Below the pieces are notes generated by a model that saw only the letters and a program-made list of their open reading frames with translations, did not search any database and was not told the origin of the DNA. DNA of 19,118 nucleotides from a virus (Duplodnaviria; Heunggongvirae; Uroviricota; Caudoviricetes): IMG/VR virus record IMGVR_UViG_2506381019_000003, positions 1 to 19,118 of that record, one strand, 5' to 3'. The position numbers and the translations under genes were made by a program. Position 1 is the stretch's first letter. Each line of letters begins with the position of its first letter. Below are positions 1 to 7,466 of the stretch, one piece after another.

Positions 1-1176
1 GTGCGTCTCACCGTCGACCGTGACAGCCTCGCCGATCTCGTCCCCTGGGCTGCCAGAACTCTGCCCTCCAAAGCGACCACCCAGTTGCAGGTGCTCGCCG
101 GCCTGCTCCTCGAAGCGGATGGCAGCGCGCTTCGGGTGTCGGCCTACGACTACGAGGTGGCTACCACTGGCGCCGCGGATGCCCGCGTTGTCGAGGAAGG
201 CCGGGCACTGGTCAACGGCAAGATGCTCGCCGACCTGGTCAAGTCACTGCCGAAGGCCCGCGTCGAGTTGGCGGTGGACGGAACCCGGCTGACGATCACA
301 TCCGGTTCGGCGAGCTTCAAGCTGCCGATGCTGCCCTCCGAGGACTACCCGGCCCTCCCCCCGATGCCGGACCTGCTCGGCACCGTGGACGCAGGCCTGT
401 TCGTGACCGCGGTCGGCCAAGTGGGAATCGCCGCCGGCCGGGACGACACCCTTCCGGTACTCACCGGCATACGGGTCGAGTTCTCCCCGAAGACGATCAC
501 CCTCGCGGCCACGGACCGGTACCGCCTCGCGGTCCGCACCATCCCCTGGGAGCCGGCGCCCGACGCGGACCTGACACTCACCCTCCTGATCCCGGCCCGC
601 ACCCTCTCGGACATCGCACGCGCCGCCGGAGAAGGCCGGATCACCATCGCCGCGGCCGGCCAGAAGAAGGCCGAAGGACGCGGGAGCGGGGAGCCCGCGT
701 CCGCCGGCTTCGACGTCGCCGGCCGGCAGACCACGACCCGTCTCATCGAGGGAACGTTCCCGCCGTACCGGAAGCTGCTGCCAGATTCGACACCGCTGAT
801 CGCTGAGGTCGAGATCCCGCCGCTGGCCGCCGCGGTCAAGCGGGTGGCGCTGGTGGCATCCCGCACCGCCCCGGTACAGCTCACCTTCGCCCCCGGCCTG
901 CTCGCGCTCGAAGCCGGCGCCGGCGGGGAGGCCCAAGCCTCCGAGACGCTGGCGGTCGCCTACGACGGTCCCGAGCTCAAGGTCTCGTTCAACCCGGCGT
1001 ACCTGCTCGACGCGGCCGGCGCCATCGAAGACGACCTGGTGAGGTTCGGGTTCGCCACCGAGGAGCCTGAGATCGCCGCAGTGAAGCCCGCGATCCTCAC
1101 CGGCAAGACCGGCGGCGACCCGGCGGAGATCCCCGACTACCGGTACCTGCTGATGCCGATCCGCCTCAACGGCTGA
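1..1176 (+). CDS. dnaN: DNA polymerase III beta subunit (sliding clamp), extra MGE-borne copy
   Basis: 391 aa. Actinobacterial DnaN motifs: AYDYEV, YPALPPMP, AAGRDDTLPVLTG, ATDRYRLAVR, TRLIEGTFPPYRKLLP, FNPAYLLDA and C-terminal YRYLLMPIRL. The GTG start is at the window edge, so the upstream context is not visible. Confidence 0.96.
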   Translation: MRLTVDRDSLADLVPWAARTLPSKATTQLQVLAGLLLEADGSALRVSAYDYEVATTGAADARVVEEGRALVNGKMLADLVKSLPKARVELAVDGTRLTITSGSASFKLPMLPSEDYPALPPMPDLLGTVDAGLFVTAVGQVGIAAGRDDTLPVLTGIRVEFSPKTITLAATDRYRLAVRTIPWEPAPDADLTLTLLIPARTLSDIARAAGEGRITIAAAGQKKAEGRGSGEPASAGFDVAGRQTTTRLIEGTFPPYRKLLPDSTPLIAEVEIPPLAAAVKRVALVASRTAPVQLTFAPGLLALEAGAGGEAQASETLAVAYDGPELKVSFNPAYLLDAAGAIEDDLVRFGFATEEPEIAAVKPAILTGKTGGDPAEIPDYRYLLMPIRLNG

Positions 1177-1206
1177 CCAGTCACACCGACTGGTTACGCT
1201 CCCCGC
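1173..1206 (+). promoter_or_regulatory. Candidate leaderless sigma-70-type promoter for the 1207 ORF, with an overlapping palindromic operator
   Basis: -35-like CTGACC (1173-1178), 16-bp spacer, -10 TACGCT (1195-1200), then 6 nt to the ATG at 1207 with no Shine-Dalgarno. Inverted repeat TGACCAGTC-acacc-GACTGGTTA at 1174-1196. Confidence 0.45.
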
Positions 1207-2031
1207 ATGGCTGCTGACCCTGACCGGTTCCTCGTCGAGGTCCGGAACCGGTACCCGAATCTTCTCGGTGCGCTGCGGGACATGGCGGGAAAGCGGGGGG
1301 TGCCGCCGCTGCCGGAGTGGCCGGAGTGGTGCTGGCTCCCGATGGCCGCAGCCGCGAGTGCCGCAACTCACCCGGAGGACATTGCCCGTCTGGCCGCGGT
1401 GTCGACGTGGTGGCTCGACCGCGCTGTGATCGAGGTAGACGAGGATCTGGCCTCCCGCCACATTCCCGCGCCAGACCGGGACATCCGCATCGACCGGGAG
1501 CGTCTGCTGACAGGTCTGCCGTCCTGGTGTCCGTACGTGCTGGTACCTGAGCCCCCCACCGCGGCGCCGGCCGGGTTCTGGCCCTGCGGCTTCTTCGTGC
1601 ACACCGAGTGGGACGCGGCCCGAGGCGGGGCGCCCGAACTGCGGATCCTCGCCGACATCGACGGCACATGGGACGGGCTGGTCGCGGTTCCTGTGCACGC
1701 CGATCAGCCGACGGTGCGCTGGTCGGCCCAGGACGCCGCCCGGCTGATGGCCACGAACGCCGCGGCGAAGCTCGTTCCCGACGCCCAGGGAGACTTGCTG
1801 ACCGGCGCGGTGGAGCTCGGGGAGCTGCTGGCCCGGCTGGTGTGGCCGCTGGTCGCCGCGCTGGTGGACCCGGCAGGCCGGGCTATCGGCCGGGACCGGC
1901 CGGGTGAGGTGCTGGAACGTGTGCAGCCCGAGCGGCGCGGCGATGTCGTGGTGTGGCCGCGACGGCCGCGGACGTCGTCCTGGCGGATGACCGCCGGGCC
2001 CGCGCCGCGGCCGGGACTGCGGTCGGTCTGA
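1207..2031 (+). CDS. AcrVA2/FinQ-family-like protein, C-terminally shortened
   Basis: 274 aa with high GC3. Ordered motifs WCWLPMA ... IARLAAVSTW ... IEVDEDL ... LPSWCPYV ... GFFVHTEWD ... ELRILADID ... LVAVPVH ... LVWPLVAAL match my recollection of AcrVA2 (FFPMQ ... LSRLYLYGAW ... YQLDEEI ... LPDWCVYV ... GFWAIYD ... LDFVVDTD ... VYVPQP ... LLPYLLWL). There is no C-terminal PHxRRxHW motif. The CDS itself is more certain than the family call. Confidence 0.65.
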   Translation: MAADPDRFLVEVRNRYPNLLGALRDMAGKRGVPPLPEWPEWCWLPMAAAASAATHPEDIARLAAVSTWWLDRAVIEVDEDLASRHIPAPDRDIRIDRERLLTGLPSWCPYVLVPEPPTAAPAGFWPCGFFVHTEWDAARGGAPELRILADIDGTWDGLVAVPVHADQPTVRWSAQDAARLMATNAAAKLVPDAQGDLLTGAVELGELLARLVWPLVAALVDPAGRAIGRDRPGEVLERVQPERRGDVVVWPRRPRTSSWRMTAGPAPRPGLRSV

Positions 2032-2112
2032 GGTGCGCCAGTAGTCTGTGCTGGCCGGTCCGGTGGGGTGCCTTCGACAGCAGCTCCTCCGGGCCGGTTT
2101 CCTTTGCAGAAA

Positions 2113-2136
2113 AATTGGCAAGCTGGCTTGCTAATT
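2113..2136. promoter_or_regulatory. Palindromic operator-like site overlapping the -35
   Basis: AATTGGCAAGC-tg-GCTTGCTAATT: 11-bp arms with one mismatch and a 2-nt spacer. Confidence 0.6.
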
Positions 2137-2157
2137 ACGGGTGGTGCCTGTCATGCT
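2128..2157 (+). promoter_or_regulatory. Candidate promoter for the 2197 operon
   Basis: -35 TTGCTA (2128-2133), 18-bp spacer, TG at 2149-2150 then CATGCT (2152-2157), an extended -10-like element. 2101-2140 is about 45% GC in an otherwise very GC-rich window. RBS AGGAG at 2182-2186. Confidence 0.5.
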
Positions 2158-2196
2158 CGATCACGTCGAAGGCACCCCTGTAGGAGCGAGCACACC

Positions 2197-3459
2197 ATGA
2201 CCCGGATCACCGTCCCGCCCATCCCGGACCGGCTCACCGGTTGGCGCAAGACCATCACCGCCCTGAACGACCAGGCCCGCGGCGGCTTCGCCATCACCGG
2301 CGAGTGGCTGCAGCCCGGCGACATCGTCGACGTTCCCGCCGACATGCTGATCATCGCCGTGGACAAGACGTTCATCGGCCACGCGCCGGTATCCCGCTTC
2401 TCCGACGGCGCCGCCCGCTACGCGGCAACCGTCACCCTCCACCGCGCCAGCGAAGACGGCCTCACCACCATCTGGACCCGCGCGTTCAAGGACTCGACGT
2501 CCGCGCTCGGTGCGACGACCCGCGCCCAGATCCGCAAGGCCCTCACAGCGCACCCAGCACCCACCGGCCCGGCAACGGTCGTCACCGAAGCCCGCCGGCC
2601 GAACCGGAAGGACGGCGCCTGCCGCTGGTGTCACAACCGGGTGCCCGCGCAGGCCGGTCACTTGGTCGGCCACGGCGACGACCTGCTGGTTGAGCACTGG
2701 CAGACCTGCCCGCCCCGGCTTCTCGCTAACGGCCCGCTGAACTGCGGGCTGTGCGGTGTCGAGCTGCTCGACGCGAACGGCTACCGGGCACCCGACCCGG
2801 CCGAGGTCGTCATGGTCCGCGAGGGTACGGGCCACTGGGAGCCCCGCCACGCCGCCCGCCTGAACTGCACCGAGAACCGGCTGGAGTCCGCGACCGAGCG
2901 GCGCGCCCGCGACGCCGCTGCCCGTGACGCGGAGCAGGCCGCGTTCCAGTCGCGGCAGGCGGCTGCGCAGAAGCGGGAGGATGCGAAGGCCCGCCGGGAG
3001 CAGGCCCGCCGGGACGCCGCCGACGCCGAAGCCGCGCGGGTGAAGGATCTGAAGGTGACCAGCCGGAAGGTCAGCAACCTGTACGACAAGGGCCTCGGCG
3101 AGGGCCAGCGGGCCCGCCTCGACGAGTACGTCGACACCCTGTCGGACGGAACGACCACCACCCGATGGGCGGTCGTCACCTACACCGGGGGCACCGTCGG
3201 CAGCTTCACCGTGGATGGCGACTGGGGCGGCGACGACCCCGAGGGCAGCGCCATCTACCACTACAAGCCGACCGCCCGCATCGCCTACCAGCGGCTGAAG
3301 TACACCCCGCCGGCCCGCGAGCCGTACGAGCCGGGTGGCGAGTGCGCCGAATGCCACGGCGGCGGAGCCCGCTACACCCGGTTCGACTCCTCCGGCATCG
3401 AGGGCAAGGTCTGCGCCCGCTGCAACGACAACCCCGACTACCTGCTGTCGTTCGCCTGA
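2197..3459 (+). CDS. Hypothetical protein with three putative zinc-binding motifs
   Basis: 420 aa. Start moved to ATG 2197 because of the AGGAG RBS. Motifs: C142xxC145...H167xxxC171; C183xxC186...H218x5C224; C383xxC386...C406xxC409. Charged Ala/Arg helical linker in the middle. High GC3. Confidence 0.85.
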   Translation: MTRITVPPIPDRLTGWRKTITALNDQARGGFAITGEWLQPGDIVDVPADMLIIAVDKTFIGHAPVSRFSDGAARYAATVTLHRASEDGLTTIWTRAFKDSTSALGATTRAQIRKALTAHPAPTGPATVVTEARRPNRKDGACRWCHNRVPAQAGHLVGHGDDLLVEHWQTCPPRLLANGPLNCGLCGVELLDANGYRAPDPAEVVMVREGTGHWEPRHAARLNCTENRLESATERRARDAAARDAEQAAFQSRQAAAQKREDAKARREQARRDAADAEAARVKDLKVTSRKVSNLYDKGLGEGQRARLDEYVDTLSDGTTTTRWAVVTYTGGTVGSFTVDGDWGGDDPEGSAIYHYKPTARIAYQRLKYTPPAREPYEPGGECAECHGGGARYTRFDSSGIEGKVCARCNDNPDYLLSFA

Positions 3460-3468
3460 CCATCCCCG

Positions 3469-3493
3469 CCGGGCCCGCGGTTGGCGGGCCCGG
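3469..3493. terminator. GC-rich hairpin between genes (possible terminator or processing site)
   Basis: CCGGGCCCGC-ggttg-GCGGGCCCGG, a perfect 10-bp stem just after the 3459 stop. No U-tract. Confidence 0.45.
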
Positions 3494-3512
3494 ACCGCCG
3501 CCAAGGAGCACC

Positions 3513-4001
3513 GTGACCGATCCACCAATGACCCGCGCCGAGCTCGCCCGCCGGTACGGCGTCGCCCAGTCGGCCATCACCCGCGCACTTCAACGCGCCC
3601 AGGAACGCCACCAGCAGGACCCAGACCGGCACCCGGCCCCGCCCGCGGCGCTGAACCCCGACTCGGCCCACCCGGTGTGGCCGATCGCCGAGTTCGACAG
3701 CTGGTGGAGAAGCCGGCCCGGACGCGGACGTCCACGCCGTTCAACCACGCGAGAGGAACCAGACATGGATCACGACGAGTCGGCTCGGCCGCACCGACGG
3801 ATCGAGCACATAGACGAGAAGAACGCCAAGGTCTACATCGGCAACCGGCTCATTGGCGAGGTCCGCCAAGGTCTCAACGGCAGATGGTTTTCCGCCAACC
3901 TCGACCAGATTTCCTGGTCAGACGACGCATTCTTCTCCGGCCGGGACAACATCGCCGGGACGGGCGCTCCGACGGCTACCGAGGCCGCGAACAACCTGTA
4001 A
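3513..4001 (+). CDS. Helix-turn-helix (AlpA/Xis/MerR-like) protein with AT-hook-like RGRP motif, fused in frame to a second small domain
   Basis: AAGGAG RBS at 3503-3508 and GTG at 3513. MTRAELARRYGVAQSAITRAL is an HTH; WPIAEFDSWWRSRPGRGRPRR is the typical tail of actinobacterial HTH proteins of this type. 162 aa in total. Confidence 0.75.
   Translation: MTDPPMTRAELARRYGVAQSAITRALQRAQERHQQDPDRHPAPPAALNPDSAHPVWPIAEFDSWWRSRPGRGRPRRSTTREEPDMDHDESARPHRRIEHIDEKNAKVYIGNRLIGEVRQGLNGRWFSANLDQISWSDDAFFSGRDNIAGTGAPTATEAANNL
3765..4001 (+). CDS. Small hypothetical protein (78 aa), probable internal in-frame start
   Basis: GAGAGGA RBS at 3751-3757, 7 nt before ATG 3765. The sequence MDHDESARPHRRIEHIDEKNAKVYIGNRLIGEV looks like an independent protein. 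Confidence 0.55.
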   Translation: MDHDESARPHRRIEHIDEKNAKVYIGNRLIGEVRQGLNGRWFSANLDQISWSDDAFFSGRDNIAGTGAPTATEAANNL

Positions 4002-4021
4002 CCCCGCACACGACTGAAGTG

Positions 4022-4114
4022 CCGGCCCGTCTCCGGGCATGCGAAAAGCGGCCTGCCACCCCCGACAGACGGGGGTGGCAGGCCGCTTGTGTGTGGTTGC
4101 CCGAGACGGGCCGG
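4022..4114. terminator. Nested bidirectional terminator hairpin between convergent transcription units
   Basis: Perfect 19-bp inner stem AAGCGGCCTGCCACCCCCG (4046-4064) / 4070-4088 with a 5-nt loop. Outer stem 4022-4039 / 4098-4114 has one bulge. Confidence 0.85.
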
Positions 4115-4120
4115 GGCAGG

Positions 4121-4528
4121 CTACCCGGCCGGGCGCAGGGCAGCGCGCGGCGTGGCCTCGTTGCGTGTCCACAGGCCGAGCACGGTGGCGACGGCGGCCA
4201 GGAACACGGCATCGAAACCGGCCGGCAGGTCCAGGCCGAGCAGCACGCCCAGCGGGATCACCACCTGGAAGAAGCCGTAGAACAGCGCAGGGTTCACACG
4301 CTCACCGCCGGCCGCCTGGACCTTCACCGCGCCGATGATGGCGAACAGCGCAGCGGATACGGCGAGGATCGCACCCTGCAGGCCGGGAGTGAGTGCGTCC
4401 ACCCAGAAGGCGGCCAAGGGCAGGACCGCGGCGAGTACGGCCTGGGCACCACCGAGCAGCGCGGCCGGCTCCCGTGCGGGCAGGGACAGCCGGGCAGTTT
4501 CCGGCAGGGACGGGGCGATCAGGGGCAT
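4121..4528 (-). CDS. Holin-like membrane protein (about 4 TM segments)
   Basis: 135 aa, hydrophobic. REPAALLG... and ...LGLWTRNEATP motifs are typical of actinophage holins. Appears internally duplicated (two 2-TM units). GGAGG RBS; last gene of the lysis cassette. Confidence 0.8.
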   Translation of the reverse strand: MPLIAPSLPETARLSLPAREPAALLGGAQAVLAAVLPLAAFWVDALTPGLQGAILAVSAALFAIIGAVKVQAAGGERVNPALFYGFFQVVIPLGVLLGLDLPAGFDAVFLAAVATVLGLWTRNEATPRAALRPAG

Positions 4529-4576
4529 GACAGAACCTCCGAGAGGCGAGTTTGGGGAGGGGTAAGCAGGGGACGG

Positions 4577-5398
4577 TCAGAAGCCGCGGGCCACGGCCCA
4601 CGTCGCGTAGGCGCCGGCGAACGCCAGGTCGGCGGCGTCGGGACGGGTCGGCACGGGGACGGGCACCGGCACGGGGACGGGTGCGGCCGGGATCGGGGTG
4701 GGTACGGTGACGTCGCCCTGCCGCTGCAGCAGCGCGTCCATGTCGGCCCACGTCAGGTAGGCGCGGCCGTCGAGGCCGAAGCCAGGGCCCCAGCTGTTGG
4801 TCAGCCACACCCGCTTGCGGTCCACGTCGATTTCGTCGACGAGGTACTCGTGACCACCTTCGGCGTTGCCTCGGATCCGGAGCCGGCCGTCGCCGGCCGG
4901 GGTGAACATCTCGGTGAGCCACACGGTGCCGACCATCACCGGGCCCGCCTGCAGCGCGGTCAGCATCGCCTGCAGGCTGAAGGCGTGGCTGTAGGTCGAG
5001 CACAGGCCGACCTGCTGCAGCGCCTTGGCGACGGATAGCCCGTCGGACCCCGTGTCAGTGGGCGGGTAGGTGCCCGGGTAGTCATCGACCTGCGTCGCGA
5101 CCCCGTACAACGCCACGGCGAACAGCTCGTCGACCCGACGTCCGTTGACCGGCGAGACGGACGCACCGTCACGCACGGCGTTGTCGGTTCCGACCCACCC
5201 CGCTGCGGCCTGACCGGTGCAGCTCCCGAGGCTGCCCTGGTCGAACACCGGAACCCGCCGTGTCCATCGCTTGGACTCCAGCGCGCTGGTGGGCACCCCG
5301 GCGACCGCGAACCGCAGCGACCGCCGATCGTGACGGATGTGCCGACCCAACCTGTACGGCAGGTCCGGGGTCTCCGGGATGCGGACGATGGTCGTCAC
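4577..5398 (-). CDS. Papain-like (C1A-type) cysteine peptidase
   Basis: 273 aa. DQGSLGSC (oxyanion Gln and catalytic Cys), GGH (His), NSWG (Asn), followed by a Pro-Val repeat linker and a short C-terminal helix. GTGA overlap with the endolysin stop. Confidence 0.9.
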   Translation of the reverse strand: MTTIVRIPETPDLPYRLGRHIRHDRRSLRFAVAGVPTSALESKRWTRRVPVFDQGSLGSCTGQAAAGWVGTDNAVRDGASVSPVNGRRVDELFAVALYGVATQVDDYPGTYPPTDTGSDGLSVAKALQQVGLCSTYSHAFSLQAMLTALQAGPVMVGTVWLTEMFTPAGDGRLRIRGNAEGGHEYLVDEIDVDRKRVWLTNSWGPGFGLDGRAYLTWADMDALLQRQGDVTVPTPIPAAPVPVPVPVPVPTRPDAADLAFAGAYATWAVARGF

Positions 5399-6330
5399 AG
5401 CGTGGTGCCTCCGGGGGCGACGGTGAGAGTGAGGCTGGAGAGCCGGGCGGACAGCGCGTCCAGCCGGGCGAGCACAGCGGTGAGGTCCACCGCGCCGCCG
5501 TCGCCGGCGGTGAGCCGGGCGACGTCCGCGCGGACCGCGGCGAGGTCGGTGCCGATCGCCCGGGTCCAGGCGACCAGCGCTCCGTCGGTGCTGAGGTAGC
5601 TGCCGACCCGGGCAACCTCGGTCTCCAGTGCGTAGACCCGCGACTGCAGGTCACCCGCCTTCAGGTAGACAGACCCGAGAGTCATGCCGGCGGAGCCCTG
5701 CCGGATCGGCGTCTTCTCGCCGGCCGCGGTGAGGACCTCGGCGAACAGGTCCGCGCGAAGCCGCGCGGAAATCCGGGCAACGTCTTCGTCGGACAGCTGC
5801 ATGTCGTCCTCCTCGGACGGTGGAGGGGATGTGGGGTAGCCGCGGGCGGCGGCGAGGATGTCGGTCCGGCGGCCGGCACGCAGGTCCCCGGGGCAGGCGT
5901 GGCCACCCCAGGAGGCGCCGCCCATCCGATGGGTGCCGAGGCCGTAGCCGTTCGGGTCGTCGGTGATCTGTGCCGGCCAGCCGAACTCGGCCATGCCCCA
6001 CCGGTAGATCTCGGCGAGTCGCCCGAGCTGCTGCGGGGTGTAGTCCTCGGTGGTGAAGCCCTCGCACTCCACGCTGATCCAGAACCGGTTTCCAGCGGCC
6101 TGCGCCCACGCCCGATCCGTGAGGAGCACGTACTCCTCCACGGCGCCCGTCTTGGACACCCACAGATGTGCGCTGACCTGGCTGGCCGCGTTGTCGAACC
6201 AGCCGAACAGGGAGCCGTTGCCCTGCTGGACGTGCACGATCAGCCCGCGGGTGGGCACGACGATCCCGCCGGCCGTGTAGTTCCGCACCGGCCGCCACAC
6301 GGCACCCGGGTAGCGGGTCGGGTAGCTCAC
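5395..6330 (-). CDS. Endolysin, N-acetylmuramoyl-L-alanine amidase (Amidase_2-type)
   Basis: 311 aa. IVH...SAHLWV...EYV...RAWA...ISVECEG...GTH...ACPG give the zinc ligands His/His/Cys. Pro-rich linker, then a helical C-terminal region. Confidence 0.92.
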   Translation of the reverse strand: MSYPTRYPGAVWRPVRNYTAGGIVVPTRGLIVHVQQGNGSLFGWFDNAASQVSAHLWVSKTGAVEEYVLLTDRAWAQAAGNRFWISVECEGFTTEDYTPQQLGRLAEIYRWGMAEFGWPAQITDDPNGYGLGTHRMGGASWGGHACPGDLRAGRRTDILAAARGYPTSPPPSEEDDMQLSDEDVARISARLRADLFAEVLTAAGEKTPIRQGSAGMTLGSVYLKAGDLQSRVYALETEVARVGSYLSTDGALVAWTRAIGTDLAAVRADVARLTAGDGGAVDLTAVLARLDALSARLSSLTLTVAPGGTTL

Positions 6331-6944: not shown

Positions 6945-7466
6945 TTAAGATGCGAGACGGATCACTGAAATTTGACAGCCTCCGTCGTTAGTTGATGTAT
7001 TCAGCGATCCGCCTGAGTTCTGCCAGGCGAACAGCTGGATGTACTCCCCGACGTCCATGTGAACGACCCGTAGTGCCATATCGATAAAGGTTTCGACGGG
7101 GCTGGCGAGCGCTGGAACGGATGCGGCGCGCAGCGTTGTGCCGTTGCGCTTCATCTTCCCGAACCGGCCGCCTGTCGAGTTAGCGGCGAAAGCGACCACT
7201 CCGGCGATCGCGTAGTAGCCCGCGGTGTTCGCTGTAATCTTGGTCGGGTCGCCGCTCGACCACATGTTGTCGACGTTCGGACTGGCCGACCCGAAGGTGA
7301 TTGCAATGTCAGAGGATGTCGCTATCGACTGCGTGCCCGTGGCGAACGCCCGGCACAGCCCGCCGTCGCAGTCCCGAAGGAAATCCATCATCGATGAGAT
7401 CTCGTTCATCTTCGCTGCGGTCAGGACCTCGTTTGTCCAGGTGCGAATAGACGGGACCGTTGCCAT
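6945..7466 (-). CDS. Minor tail protein, probable C1q/TNF-like beta-sandwich; paralog of 7467-8012
   Basis: 173 aa. MATVPSIRTW N-terminus; TKITANTAGYYAIAGVVAF...TGGR...RNG pattern. Lower GC than the flanks. Confidence 0.7.
   Translation of the reverse strand: MATVPSIRTWTNEVLTAAKMNEISSMMDFLRDCDGGLCRAFATGTQSIATSSDIAITFGSASPNVDNMWSSGDPTKITANTAGYYAIAGVVAFAANSTGGRFGKMKRNGTTLRAASVPALASPVETFIDMALRVVHMDVGEYIQLFAWQNSGGSLNTSTNDGGCQISVIRLAS

What the first reader, a model, noticed from the sequence alone, without database searches (positions are those of the whole stretch)
1..4001. Candidate undescribed anti-defence module: beta clamp + AcrVA2-like gene + switch-like promoter + Zn-finger + Aca-like HTH
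Seen: five plus-strand ORFs convergent on the lysis cassette, two candidate promoters each overlapped by a different palindrome, and a terminal HTH gene. Established: acr loci typically have a strong promoter with inverted-repeat operators, followed by small unknown genes and an HTH aca repressor at the operon end. Inference: this is an acr/aca-like counter-defence or host-takeover island in a Frankia-like phage, with unusual cargo (a sliding clamp) and possibly phase-variable control.
Basis: partly seen in the sequence, partly recalled or inferred. Interest (0 to 1): 0.75.

Follow-up and report, generated by a model that had tools for sequence, protein, structure and literature searches.

The report
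Prophage accessory arm with AcrVA2-like gene
The end of a Parafrankia-type prophage carries a phage sliding-clamp gene, a shortened relative of the anti-CRISPR AcrVA2 that lacks its key catalytic residues, and a separate self-regulated gene cassette (unknown zinc protein plus small DNA-binding protein) shared with actinobacterial plasmids. This fits a role in conflicts between mobile elements and hosts, but no anti-defence activity is shown.

Summary
Four plus-strand genes converge on a holin/endolysin cassette.

- **Clamp (1-1176):** a complete DnaN-type sliding clamp.
- **ORF2 (1207-2031):** a true member of the AcrVA2/FinQ family (profile vs PDB 7CI1, E 3e-20). It belongs to a short actinobacterial clade that ends before the HxR...HWH motif needed for AcrVA2 activity.
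- **ORF3 (2197-3459):** a 420-aa multi-zinc-site protein of a new family.
- **ORF4 (3513-4001):** an excisionase/BldC-like HTH with an AT-hook and an orphan 78-aa tail.

The region is not one operon. A terminator-like stem, a promoter whose -35 box lies in the 2113-2136 palindrome, and 14-bp inverted repeats form a non-coding cassette upstream of ORF3. This cassette is conserved in five distant loci, and only those loci carry the ORF4-like HTH. ORF3/ORF4 is therefore most likely an insulated, autoregulated unit.

ORF3 relatives sit next to short AcrVA2-like genes in 4 of 17 loci. The clamp is linked in none.

The "promoter" at 1170-1200 is a chance-level hairpin in a 30-bp gap. Phase variation has no support.

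Anti-defence function is plausible by association only. Other first-stage notes on this same window had already flagged the truncated AcrVA2-like protein and the inverted-repeat-bracketed promoter.

The parts
1..1176 (+). DnaN-type sliding clamp, complete (391 aa). The GTG start is base 1 of the record, so its promoter and upstream genes are not visible.
   Evidence: Pfam DNA_pol3_beta N, central and C domains (E 2e-34, 3e-23, 1e-21). TIGR00663 229 bits against a cut-off of 137.65. phrog_947 processivity factor E 2e-73. 34-43% identity to clamps of 154 phage records.
1176..1194 (+). Small hairpin ACCAGTC-acacc-GACTGGT in the 30-bp clamp/ORF2 gap.
   Evidence: Sequence read. Unique in the 83-kb record. 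Stems of this size occur at chance frequency. No promoter hexamers and no T-run.
1207..2031 (+). ORF2, 274 aa: short AcrVA2/FinQ-like protein (PF26125) lacking the C-terminal HxR...HWH module.
   Evidence: Precomputed PF26125. Atlas feature score 0.97 and structural TM 0.71 to AcrVA2 clusters. Profile A1 vs PDB 7CI1 AcrVA2 E 3e-20 over profile positions 18-281. C-terminus ends at PRPGLRSV.
2055..2105 (+). Terminator-like GC stem (2055-2063 / 2089-2097) followed by TTTCCTTT. Its loop holds the left inverted-repeat arm.
   Evidence: RNA fold of 2055-2199, z = -4.1. The same stem plus T-run is present in L005, L029, L030 and L031.
2065..2078 (.). Left arm of the 14-bp perfect inverted repeat, GGGGTGCCTTCGAC.
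   Evidence: A core TGCCT(T)CGAC is invariant in five loci, and the flanking bases change in a compensatory way.
2113..2136 (.). Palindrome AATTGGCAAGC-tg-GCTTGCTAATT, the candidate operator. It overlaps the -35 box TTGCTA at 2128-2133.
   Evidence: A palindrome sits at the same place in L005 (19-bp arms). In L030 I read arms of about 15 bp with two mismatches by eye from the sequence; the repeat scan did not list it. The same palindrome also occurs at second promoters of L005 and L029.
2152..2157 (+). Inferred -10 box CATGCT, 18 nt after the -35 box. The start site is predicted near 2164.
   Evidence: It aligns with TATACT (L031), CACACT (L029), CACCAT (L030) and CAGGCT (L005), each 17-18 nt after TTGC(G/T)N. 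This is inference; no transcript data are available.
2165..2178 (.). Right arm of the inverted repeat, GTCGAAGGCACCCC, lying between the predicted start site and the SD AGGAG at 2182-2186.
   Evidence: The same element GGACnCGTCGAGGCA follows the -10 box at seven promoters in five loci.
2197..3459 (+). ORF3, 420 aa, new family. Layout: N-terminal beta domain, Cys/His zinc region, a long helix spanning residues 232-282, a beta-sheet domain, and a C-terminal CxxC...CxxC ribbon.
   Evidence: 18 homologs, all unnamed. Invariant C142, C145, C171, C183, C186, H218, C224, C386, C406 and C409. AF2 pLDDT 87.8. No significant PDB or Atlas match. No Pfam, PHROG, NCBIfam or PADLOC family.
3469..3493 (+). 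10-bp perfect GC hairpin between ORF3 and ORF4, with no T-run.
3513..4001 (+). ORF4. It has an N-terminal HTH (excisionase/BldC-like) with an RPGRGRP AT-hook up to about 3764. A 78-aa orphan extension follows from the in-frame ATG at 3765, which has its own SD GAGAGGAA. The start is GTG 3513 (SD AAGGAG 3503-3508) or ATG 3528.
   Evidence: phrog_597 E 3e-6 and phrog_66 E 5e-3. Homologs of 80-98 aa lack the tail. AF2 residues 1-62 have pLDDT about 96, and the tail is low. The best fold matches are weak: BldC, GIsul2 and RdfS excisionases. Sequence read.
4046..4088 (.). Perfect 19-bp stem with a 5-nt loop, a bidirectional terminator between the converging units.
   Evidence: None in shuffles.
4121..6330 (-). 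Lysis cassette (context): holin 4121-4528, cysteine peptidase 4577-5398, amidase 5395-6330.
   Evidence: phrog_9752 holin, phrog_16701 peptidase and PF01510 Amidase_2 / phrog_1493 endolysin.

Best explanation
Bases 1-4001 are the accessory arm at the end of an integrated Parafrankia-type prophage, opposite the integrase end. The arm holds two separate transcription units.

**Unit A.** This is a phage DnaN clamp followed 30 bp later by a short AcrVA2/FinQ-family protein. Its promoter lies upstream of the record. The short protein keeps the N-terminal residues equivalent to AcrVA2 W79 and D89. It has lost the C-terminal HxR...HWH module that AcrVA2 needs to destroy its target's mRNA. It probably binds some host or rival-element protein (inferred) and is not a Cas12a inhibitor.

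**Unit B.** This is a portable cassette also found on actinobacterial plasmids and integrative elements. Its parts, in order:
- a terminator-like stem that insulates it from unit A;
- a promoter whose -35 box sits inside a palindromic operator;
- a conserved GTCGAGGCA element at the start site, mirrored upstream as an inverted repeat;
- a 420-aa zinc protein of a new family (ORF3);
- a small excisionase-fold HTH with an AT-hook (ORF4);
- a strong bidirectional terminator.

The HTH most likely represses its own promoter through the palindrome (inferred from co-occurrence; no binding data). ORF3 is the regulated cargo. Its recurrent position next to short AcrVA2-like genes and at the head of operons with IbrA/IbrB-like genes suggests a role in establishment of mobile elements or in conflict between them.
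For: **Position in the prophage**
- The record is an 83-kb provirus whose right end is a tyrosine integrase. The window is its left end.

**Gene calls and families**
- Gene frames come from codon-position GC.
- Clamp domains are complete.
- ORF2 matches AcrVA2: profile vs 7CI1 E 3e-20, with W68 and D78 aligning to AcrVA2 W79 and D89.
- All 17 actinobacterial copies end at ...PRxGLRxV without HWH. 60 of 149 more distant representatives keep HxRxxHWH.
- Marino et al. (bioRxiv 10.1101/2022.11.29.518452) show that H286A, R288A and H291A abolish AcrVA2 activity but not binding.

**The conserved cassette**
- The cassette is conserved in WIN, L005, L029, L030 and L031, whose ORF3 proteins are only 40-47% identical.
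- -35/-10 spacing is 17-18 nt, and the inverted-repeat arms are 10-16 bp with compensatory changes.
- A second copy of the same promoter and palindrome lies in front of another gene in L005 and L029.
- An ORF4-like HTH is present downstream in all five cassette loci. It is absent from L002, L004 and L013, which lack the cassette.
- The prophage's dispersed operator motif is absent from the window.

**ORF3 linkage to short AcrVA2-like genes**
- ORF3 relatives are immediate neighbours in WIN, L004, L013 and L015, lie within 8 kb in L024, and lie about 2.4 kb away on Streptomyces plasmid NZ_CP107915.
Against: - No transcript, binding or phenotype data exist. The promoter is not found by the consensus scan.
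- Within this window alone the palindrome and the inverted repeat are not statistically exceptional.
- Which protein binds the palindrome or the inverted-repeat arms is unknown. It could be ORF4, ORF3 or a host factor.
- The closer relatedness of the WIN and L030 HTHs, which share an operator type, could reflect ancestry alone.
- ORF3 has no informative fold match, so 'cargo for conflict or establishment' rests on neighbourhood only.
- Most short AcrVA2-like loci (11 of 17) have no ORF3 relative nearby. Mycobacterial copies are instead followed by an integrase.
- The DNA upstream of the clamp and the closest homologous locus (Parafrankia sp. EUN1f) could not be read.
Confidence: 0.55

Rival explanations
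1. The whole 4 kb is one acr/aca-type counter-defence island: AcrVA2-like and ORF3 are inhibitors of host defence, the clamp is host-takeover cargo, and ORF4 is the Aca repressor of the locus.
For: - ORF2 belongs to the AcrVA2 family.
- A promoter with an operator palindrome and an HTH at the operon end match acr-aca logic.
- ORF2 and ORF3 are recurrently linked.
- One ORF3 locus (L029) has a weak Aca2_YdiL hit just upstream and a PycTM gene about 2 kb upstream.
- The region lies at the end of the record opposite the integrase, next to the lysis cassette, which is where prophage accessory genes often sit (my own knowledge).
Against: - A terminator-like stem and a separate promoter split ORF2 from ORF3/ORF4.
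- The clamp is linked in 0 of 20 other AcrVA2-like loci and is a normal replication gene in actinophages.
- ORF2 lacks the residues essential for AcrVA2 activity.
- ORF3 is 420 aa with several domains, unlike typical Acr proteins.
- ORF4 matches no Aca-type Pfam family.
- No ORF was tested against any defence system.
Confidence: 0.15
2. Unit B, with or without ORF2, is a prophage-borne defence or exclusion system, or a plasmid-type establishment regulator. ORF3 would be a DNA-binding zinc protein acting on incoming or rival DNA, rather than an inhibitor of host immunity.
For: - FinQ, an AcrVA2 relative, is a fertility inhibitor acting against a rival plasmid.
- The invariant TGCCTCGAC core flanking its own promoter could be an ORF3 site.
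- The cassette heads operons containing PAPS-reductase/DUF3440 genes in L005 and L029, with a weak ParB_N hit in L029 only.
- ORF3 relatives lie on plasmids and integrative elements, not in sequenced phages.
Against: - No PADLOC defence family matches.
- No nuclease, ATPase or other effector domain is recognisable.
Confidence: 0.2
3. The 14-bp inverted repeats make the ORF3 promoter an invertible ON/OFF switch (phase variation).
For: - Perfect 14-bp inverted repeats bracket the -35/-10 boxes.
- The arms co-vary between loci, as recombination sites would.
- Tyrosine integrase genes lie 1-5 kb from ORF3 in L031 and L002.
Against: - The segment between the arms is only 79-88 bp, very short for site-specific inversion (my own knowledge).
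- All five independent assemblies have the same ON orientation.
- The second promoter copies in L005 and L029 carry only the proximal arm.
- The left arm lies inside a conserved terminator stem-loop that inversion would break.
- No recombinase gene is seen within the 19-kb window. The only integrase found in the 83-kb record is at its far end (81622-83118).
Confidence: 0.05
4. The four genes are simply the tail end of the phage replication/recombination module, with ORF2 to ORF4 as replication accessory proteins working with the clamp.
For: - The clamp is a replication protein, and in known actinophages it sits among SSB, helicase and RusA genes.
- ORF3 has zinc ribbons, which are common in primases and helicase loaders (my own knowledge).
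- The record is cut at the clamp start, so upstream replication genes could exist.
Against: - The phage's replication-initiator-like gene lies near 71-72 kb, far from this arm.
- ORF2, ORF3 and ORF4 relatives occur without clamps on plasmids and integrative elements.
- Unit B has its own insulated promoter.
Confidence: 0.05

Closest known systems
AcrVA2 (Moraxella bovoculi prophage; PDB 7CI1/7CI2) and FinQ of IncI plasmids; Pfam PF26125 AcrVA2-like
   Same: ORF2 is homologous over nearly its whole length (profile E 3e-20). It keeps equivalents of W79 and D89 and is carried by a mobile element in a host class where Cas12a is not expected. Marino et al. report the same for most family members.
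   Different: ORF2 ends where the HxR motif begins. H286 is replaced by Gly, and H291 and the HWH...WLPPI tail are absent. All 17 actinobacterial copies examined show this. The AcrVA2 mechanism of translation-coupled mRNA destruction therefore cannot be assumed.
acr-aca operons (for example JBD30 acrIF1-aca1, and Aca2 loci), in which an HTH Aca represses the acr promoter through inverted repeats
   Same: Unit B has a promoter with a palindrome over the -35 box, an unknown cargo gene, and a small HTH as the last gene. The HTH and the promoter cassette co-occur strictly (5 of 5 loci).
   Different: - The AcrVA2-like gene lies outside this unit.
- The cargo is a 420-aa multidomain zinc protein.
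- The HTH has an excisionase/BldC-like fold with an AT-hook, not a recognised Aca family.
- In plasmids and integrative elements the same promoter also drives IbrA/IbrB-like operons.
- No anti-CRISPR activity is known.
Phage-encoded DnaN sliding clamps (phrog_947; Arthrobacter phages Colucci and Persistence, mycobacteriophages)
   Same: Three-domain clamp with 34-37% identity to the listed Arthrobacter phage clamps (43% to an unannotated 'Bacteriophage sp.' record). The phage lacks an obvious polymerase of its own in the parts scanned, as many such phages do.
   Different: Here the clamp sits at the prophage end next to accessory genes, far from the initiator gene. In the reference phages it lies inside the replication module.
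Small excisionase / MerR-like winged-helix regulators (BldC of Streptomyces, RdfS, GIsul2 Xis)
   Same: The ORF4 N-terminal 62 residues are confidently modelled as a compact helical DNA-binding domain. The best, though weak, structural matches are BldC and excisionases, and there is a weak phrog_66 match.
   Different: - Foldseek E-values are about 1-2 (not significant).
- ORF4 has a Pro-rich linker, an RPGRGRP AT-hook and, only in this phage, a 78-aa orphan tail.
- It is not next to the integrase.

Membership tests
AcrVA2-like (PF26125) | Sequence or profile homology to AcrVA2 over most of its length | tested here: met
   Profile A1 vs 7CI1 chain A: E 3e-20, profile positions 18-281 to chain residues 9-290. 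Precomputed PF26125 hit. Atlas structural TM 0.71. The local Pfam copy lacks this model.
AcrVA2-like (PF26125) | Conserved N-terminal residues W79 and D89, whose mutation causes moderate loss of function | tested here: met
   W68 is invariant in A1/A2, and D78 aligns to D89 in the profile/AcrVA2 alignment.
AcrVA2 mechanism (translation-dependent mRNA down-regulation) | C-terminal H286-x-R288 and H291 (HxRRxHWH), essential for activity according to Marino et al. | tested here: not met
   ORF2 ends ...PRPGLRSV. Gly replaces H286, Arg is kept, and H291/HWH are absent. The same holds in 17 of 17 actinobacterial copies. Paper read.
AcrVA2 mechanism (translation-dependent mRNA down-regulation) | A Cas12a target in the host | not testable with these tools
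   The host chromosome is not held; the record is a trimmed provirus.
acr-aca operon | HTH (Aca) gene co-transcribed with the acr gene | tested here: inconclusive
   ORF4 shares a unit with ORF3. It is separated from the AcrVA2-like ORF2 by a terminator-like stem and a separate promoter. No transcript data.
acr-aca operon | Inverted-repeat operator in the promoter | tested here: met
   A palindrome overlaps the -35 box in WIN and L005 and at the two secondary promoters. One is also read by eye in L030 from the sequence. Binding has not been tested.
acr-aca operon | HTH belongs to a described Aca family | tested here: inconclusive
   No Pfam family at E <= 0.01, including Aca2_YdiL. Weak phrog_597 and phrog_66 matches. 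AcaFinder models are not available here.
acr-aca operon | Demonstrated inhibition of a defence system | not testable with these tools
   Needs experiments.
DnaN sliding clamp | Three beta-clamp domains, full length | tested here: met
   PF00712, PF02767 and PF02768 are all above their cut-offs. TIGR00663 229 bits against 137.65.
Invertible promoter (inverton) | Inverted repeats flanking a promoter | tested here: met
   14-bp perfect repeats at 2065-2078 and 2165-2178.
Invertible promoter (inverton) | Both orientations observed, and a cognate recombinase nearby | tested here: not met
   Five of five assemblies show the same orientation. No recombinase gene is seen in 1-19 kb. The read-level test was unavailable.

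The most novel reading that the evidence does not exclude
Short AcrVA2-like proteins and the ORF3 zinc protein form a previously undescribed two-part conflict system of actinobacterial mobile elements. The truncated AcrVA2-like protein would recognise a target protein, and ORF3 would supply the effector function lost with the HxR/HWH tail. The system would be controlled by a portable insulated promoter-operator cassette and an excisionase-fold, AT-hook repressor.
Probability: 0.1. Interest if true: 0.75.

Novelty: new variant of a known kind. Interest (0 to 1): 0.45.

Why it matters
AcrVA2 is the only anti-CRISPR known to silence its target by recognising the nascent protein, and most of its relatives have unknown targets.

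A whole actinobacterial clade keeps the recognition part of the protein but has lost the catalytic tail. That gives a natural test of which part does what.

The clade's repeated pairing with one unknown zinc protein gives a concrete partner to test.

The conserved terminator-promoter-operator cassette with its small HTH is a compact, apparently self-contained control unit shared by actinobacterial prophages, plasmids and integrative elements. It could serve as a marker for early or establishment genes in these poorly studied elements. If confirmed, it could also be a portable regulatory part for Streptomyces and Frankia genetics.

Tried and rejected
**Searches that found nothing informative**
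- Single-sequence PDB searches for ORF2, ORF3 and ORF4 found nothing.
- The local Pfam copy has no PF26125 model, so direct scans were blank.
- Fused or long AcrVA2-like representatives showed no Pfam domain in their N-terminal extensions.
- The ORF4 fold search gave no significant match.
- The PADLOC scan gave nothing but a weak mad1 hit on 28 residues of ORF4.
- Rfam found nothing relevant in 1-4600. The window has no tRNA.
- tblastn of ORF2 and ORF3 against sequenced phages gave no match.
- IMG/VR scans gave no relative for single-sequence ORF2, for the ORF3 profile or for the clamp.
- The metagenome scan for ORF3 gave one 1.7-kb fragment only.

**Data I could not reach**
- Exact-sequence look-ups of ORF2 and its Parafrankia EUN1f homolog were not on record or were withheld. 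Synteny in the closest relative could therefore not be checked.

**Readings considered and rejected**
- The 5' neighbours of ORF3 in L002 (513 aa) and L005 (415 aa) are not AcrVA2-like by profile.
- I considered the clamp being the host's own dnaN at oriC. I rejected this because the gene that follows is not recF or gnd, the usual neighbours in my own knowledge, and the clamp scores as a divergent, phage-type clamp.
- I considered a single-stranded-DNA (Frpo-like) promoter for the inverted repeat. I rejected this because the segments flanking the -10 box are not complementary.

Full report
**Where the window lies**

The window is the first 19,118 bases of an 83,118-base IMG/VR provirus record. 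The last gene of the record (81622-83118, plus strand) is a tyrosine integrase that ends exactly at the record end. Base 1 is the GTG start of the clamp gene. The record was therefore trimmed at gene boundaries, and anything upstream of the clamp is invisible.

Elsewhere the record carries tail and head genes on the minus strand, an FtsK-like gene, a Ro60-like gene, an RNA ligase and a gene with a weak match (E 1.7e-5) to lambda-O-type replication initiators near 71-72 kb.

**Gene structure**

GC content by codon position shows plus-strand coding in one frame over about 1-1900 and about 2160-3400, with a dip across the 2032-2196 gap. A second plus frame codes over about 3480-3960, and minus-strand coding starts from about 4020. 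The genes are:
- **Clamp, 1-1176.** All three DnaN domains are present. It scores TIGR00663 229 bits against a cut-off of 137.65 and phrog_947 E 2e-73.
- **ORF2, 1207-2031 (274 aa).**
- **ORF3, 2197-3459 (420 aa).** All homologs start at the equivalent M-x-I-T-V-P-P, so the longer GTG 2068 start is not used.
- **ORF4.** The best start is GTG 3513, behind AAGGAG at 3503-3508. The database calls ATG 3528.

That makes four genes, not five. A fifth exists only if the in-frame ATG at 3765, which has its own GAGAGGAA, is also used.

These genes converge on holin, cysteine peptidase and amidase genes. A perfect 19-bp hairpin at 4046-4088 separates the two sets. No shuffle reproduced it.

**ORF2 is AcrVA2-like, but of a truncated kind**

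Family membership rests on four results:
- The protein database carries a precomputed PF26125 hit.
- The Atlas gives AcrVA2-like clusters by features (0.97) and by structure (TM 0.71).
- An exhaustive phmmer search found 485 representative clusters.
- A profile of 45 of them hits AcrVA2 (7CI1) at E 3e-20 over nearly the full length.

Marino et al. report that W79A and D89A weaken AcrVA2, and that H286A, R288A and H291A abolish activity while binding is retained. In ORF2, W68 and D78 align to W79 and D89. The protein then ends at ...PRPGLRSV: Gly stands in place of H286, Arg is kept, and the HWH...WLPPI tail is missing.

This is a clade feature and not a broken gene. All 17 actinobacterial copies I fetched end the same way (Streptomyces, Embleya, Nonomuraea, Sphaerisporangium, Streptosporangium, Nocardia, Mycobacterium and the window). 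Copies from outside the Actinomycetota (a Blastocatellia MAG) and from two viral contigs of unknown host keep HxRRAHWH, as do 60 of 149 representatives.

The mycobacterial copies are followed by a tyrosine integrase. Two Streptomyces copies sit beside ParA. Others lie on actinobacterial plasmids. ORF2 is thus a mobile-element gene of the AcrVA2/FinQ family. The published mechanism cannot be transferred to it.

**The clamp is not part of a conserved module**

None of the 20 other AcrVA2-like loci has a clamp within 10 kb. Sliding clamps occur in 154 phage records, mostly Arthrobacter and Mycobacterium phages, inside replication modules. The clamp/ORF2 gap is 30 bp. It contains a 7-bp stem (1176-1194) of a size expected by chance, and no promoter-like hexamers.

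**ORF3 and its upstream cassette**

ORF3 has 18 unnamed homologs at 35-53% identity (the search reported 36-52%). They share ten invariant Cys/His residues, a long helix and a C-terminal CxxC...CxxC ribbon. The AF2 model is confident (pLDDT 87.8), but no library gives a significant match.

The 165-bp gap upstream of ORF3 is the most informative part of the finding. The same non-coding cassette precedes ORF3 homologs in L005, L029, L030 and L031, although those proteins are only 40-47% identical to ORF3. Its parts, in order:
- A GC stem followed by a T-run (WIN 2055-2105). It folds well (z = -4.1 in WIN, -8.7 in L005).
- TTGC(G/T)N, then 17-18 nt, then a -10-like hexamer. This is TATACT in L031 and CATGCT at 2152-2157 in WIN.
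- A palindrome over the -35 box. L005 has 19-bp arms. L030 has arms of about 15 bp with two mismatches, read by eye.
- GGACnCGTCGAGGCA immediately after the -10 box.

The reverse complement of that last element lies in the loop of the upstream stem. This gives inverted repeats of 14 bp (WIN, L029), 11 bp (L031), 10 bp (L030) and 16 bp with one mismatch (L005). The bases flanking the invariant core differ between loci but remain complementary.

In L005 and L029 a second copy of the same promoter lies in front of another gene, downstream of an IbrA-like PAPS-reductase/DUF3440 gene. This copy has the palindrome, the -10 box and the GTCGAGGCA element but no distal arm.

Within the window alone, neither the palindrome nor the inverted repeat exceeds shuffles. 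The support is comparative.

**ORF4 and the cassette**

A local iterative search finds ORF4-like proteins (80-98 aa) downstream of ORF3 in all five cassette loci. It finds none in the three full-length ORF3 loci that lack the cassette: L002, L004 and L013.

The family has a conserved HTH (TRAELARRYGV..STVTRAL), a Pro-rich linker, a Trp pair and an RPGRGRP AT-hook. WIN and L030 share both the operator type (AATT(G/A)GCA...) and the closest HTH (59% identity). L005 and L029 share AATGCGCA.

The N-terminal 62 residues model at pLDDT about 96. The best matches are weak: BldC and the GIsul2 and RdfS excisionases. These agree with a weak phrog_66 hit.

Only the window's copy carries a 78-aa tail. 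The tail has no homolog and low model confidence.

I infer that ORF4 is the autoregulator of the cassette. This is aca-like logic, but no binding has been shown.

**Linkage between ORF3 and the short AcrVA2-like genes**

- ORF3 homologs are immediate neighbours of short AcrVA2-like genes in the window, L004 (Nonomuraea), L013 (Streptomyces) and, divergently, L015 (Sphaerisporangium).
- A partial relative lies 8 kb away in L024.
- A Streptomyces plasmid has both about 2.4 kb apart.

ORF3 is a rare family: 19 clusters among 5.8 billion. The pairing is not obligatory, however. ORF3 is absent from 11 of 17 loci.

ORF3 relatives were not found in sequenced phages or IMG/VR. They occur in contexts with integrase, relaxase, HTH_17 and IbrA/IbrB-like genes.

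**Phase variation**

The segment between the arms is 79-88 bp. All five assemblies have the same orientation. The left arm lies inside the conserved terminator stem. The secondary promoters have a single arm. No recombinase gene is seen within the window. I put this reading at about 5%. A read-level test was not possible.

**Verdict**

The single 'anti-defence module' reading is only partly supported.

The best account has two units:
- A clamp plus a catalytically truncated AcrVA2/FinQ-like gene.
- A portable, insulated, probably autoregulated ORF3-HTH cassette shared with actinobacterial plasmids and integrative elements.

A role in conflict or establishment of mobile elements is plausible by association. 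Nothing shows anti-defence activity. That fits independent control of this arm.

Noticed in passing
L005:12650-12735 and L029:10315-10390: A second copy of the ORF3-type promoter lies just after an IbrA-like PAPS-reductase/DUF3440 gene and in front of a conserved gene of about 140 aa. It has the palindrome over the -35 box, the -10 box and GGACCCGTCGAGGCA. This suggests a small regulon under one operator type in these plasmid- or ICE-like elements.
   Followed up: partly
window 3765-4001: The 78-aa tail of ORF4 is in frame with no stop codon. It has its own SD and ATG, no homolog anywhere, and only a weakly predicted beta hairpin. It may be a stop-loss fusion of a small orphan gene to the HTH gene.
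   Followed up: partly
L016, L017, L019, L020, L025 (Mycobacterium and related MAGs): Short AcrVA2-like genes are immediately followed, with a 40-70 nt overlap, by a tyrosine integrase gene. They therefore sit at the very edge of integrated elements.
   Followed up: partly
L029:3660-4184 and 5325-5735: An ORF3 locus carries a Pycsar-type PycTM gene about 2 kb upstream of the ORF3 cassette and a weak Aca2_YdiL-like gene just upstream of it. This points to a defence/anti-defence neighbourhood.
   Followed up: no
window 3469-3493: A perfect 10-bp GC hairpin lies between ORF3 and ORF4, with no T-run. It could be a processing or attenuation site inside the operon.
   Followed up: no
L034 (Streptomyces plasmid NZ_CP107915, 209575-214983): A short AcrVA2-like gene lies directly beside a 4.3-kb SNF2-related helicase gene on a linear plasmid.
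   Followed up: no
window 6945-7466: A 173-aa protein next to the lysis genes gives a weak BclA C-terminal (C1q-like) match and matches the C-terminal end of a virion structural protein family. It is probably a tail-fibre tip.
   Followed up: no
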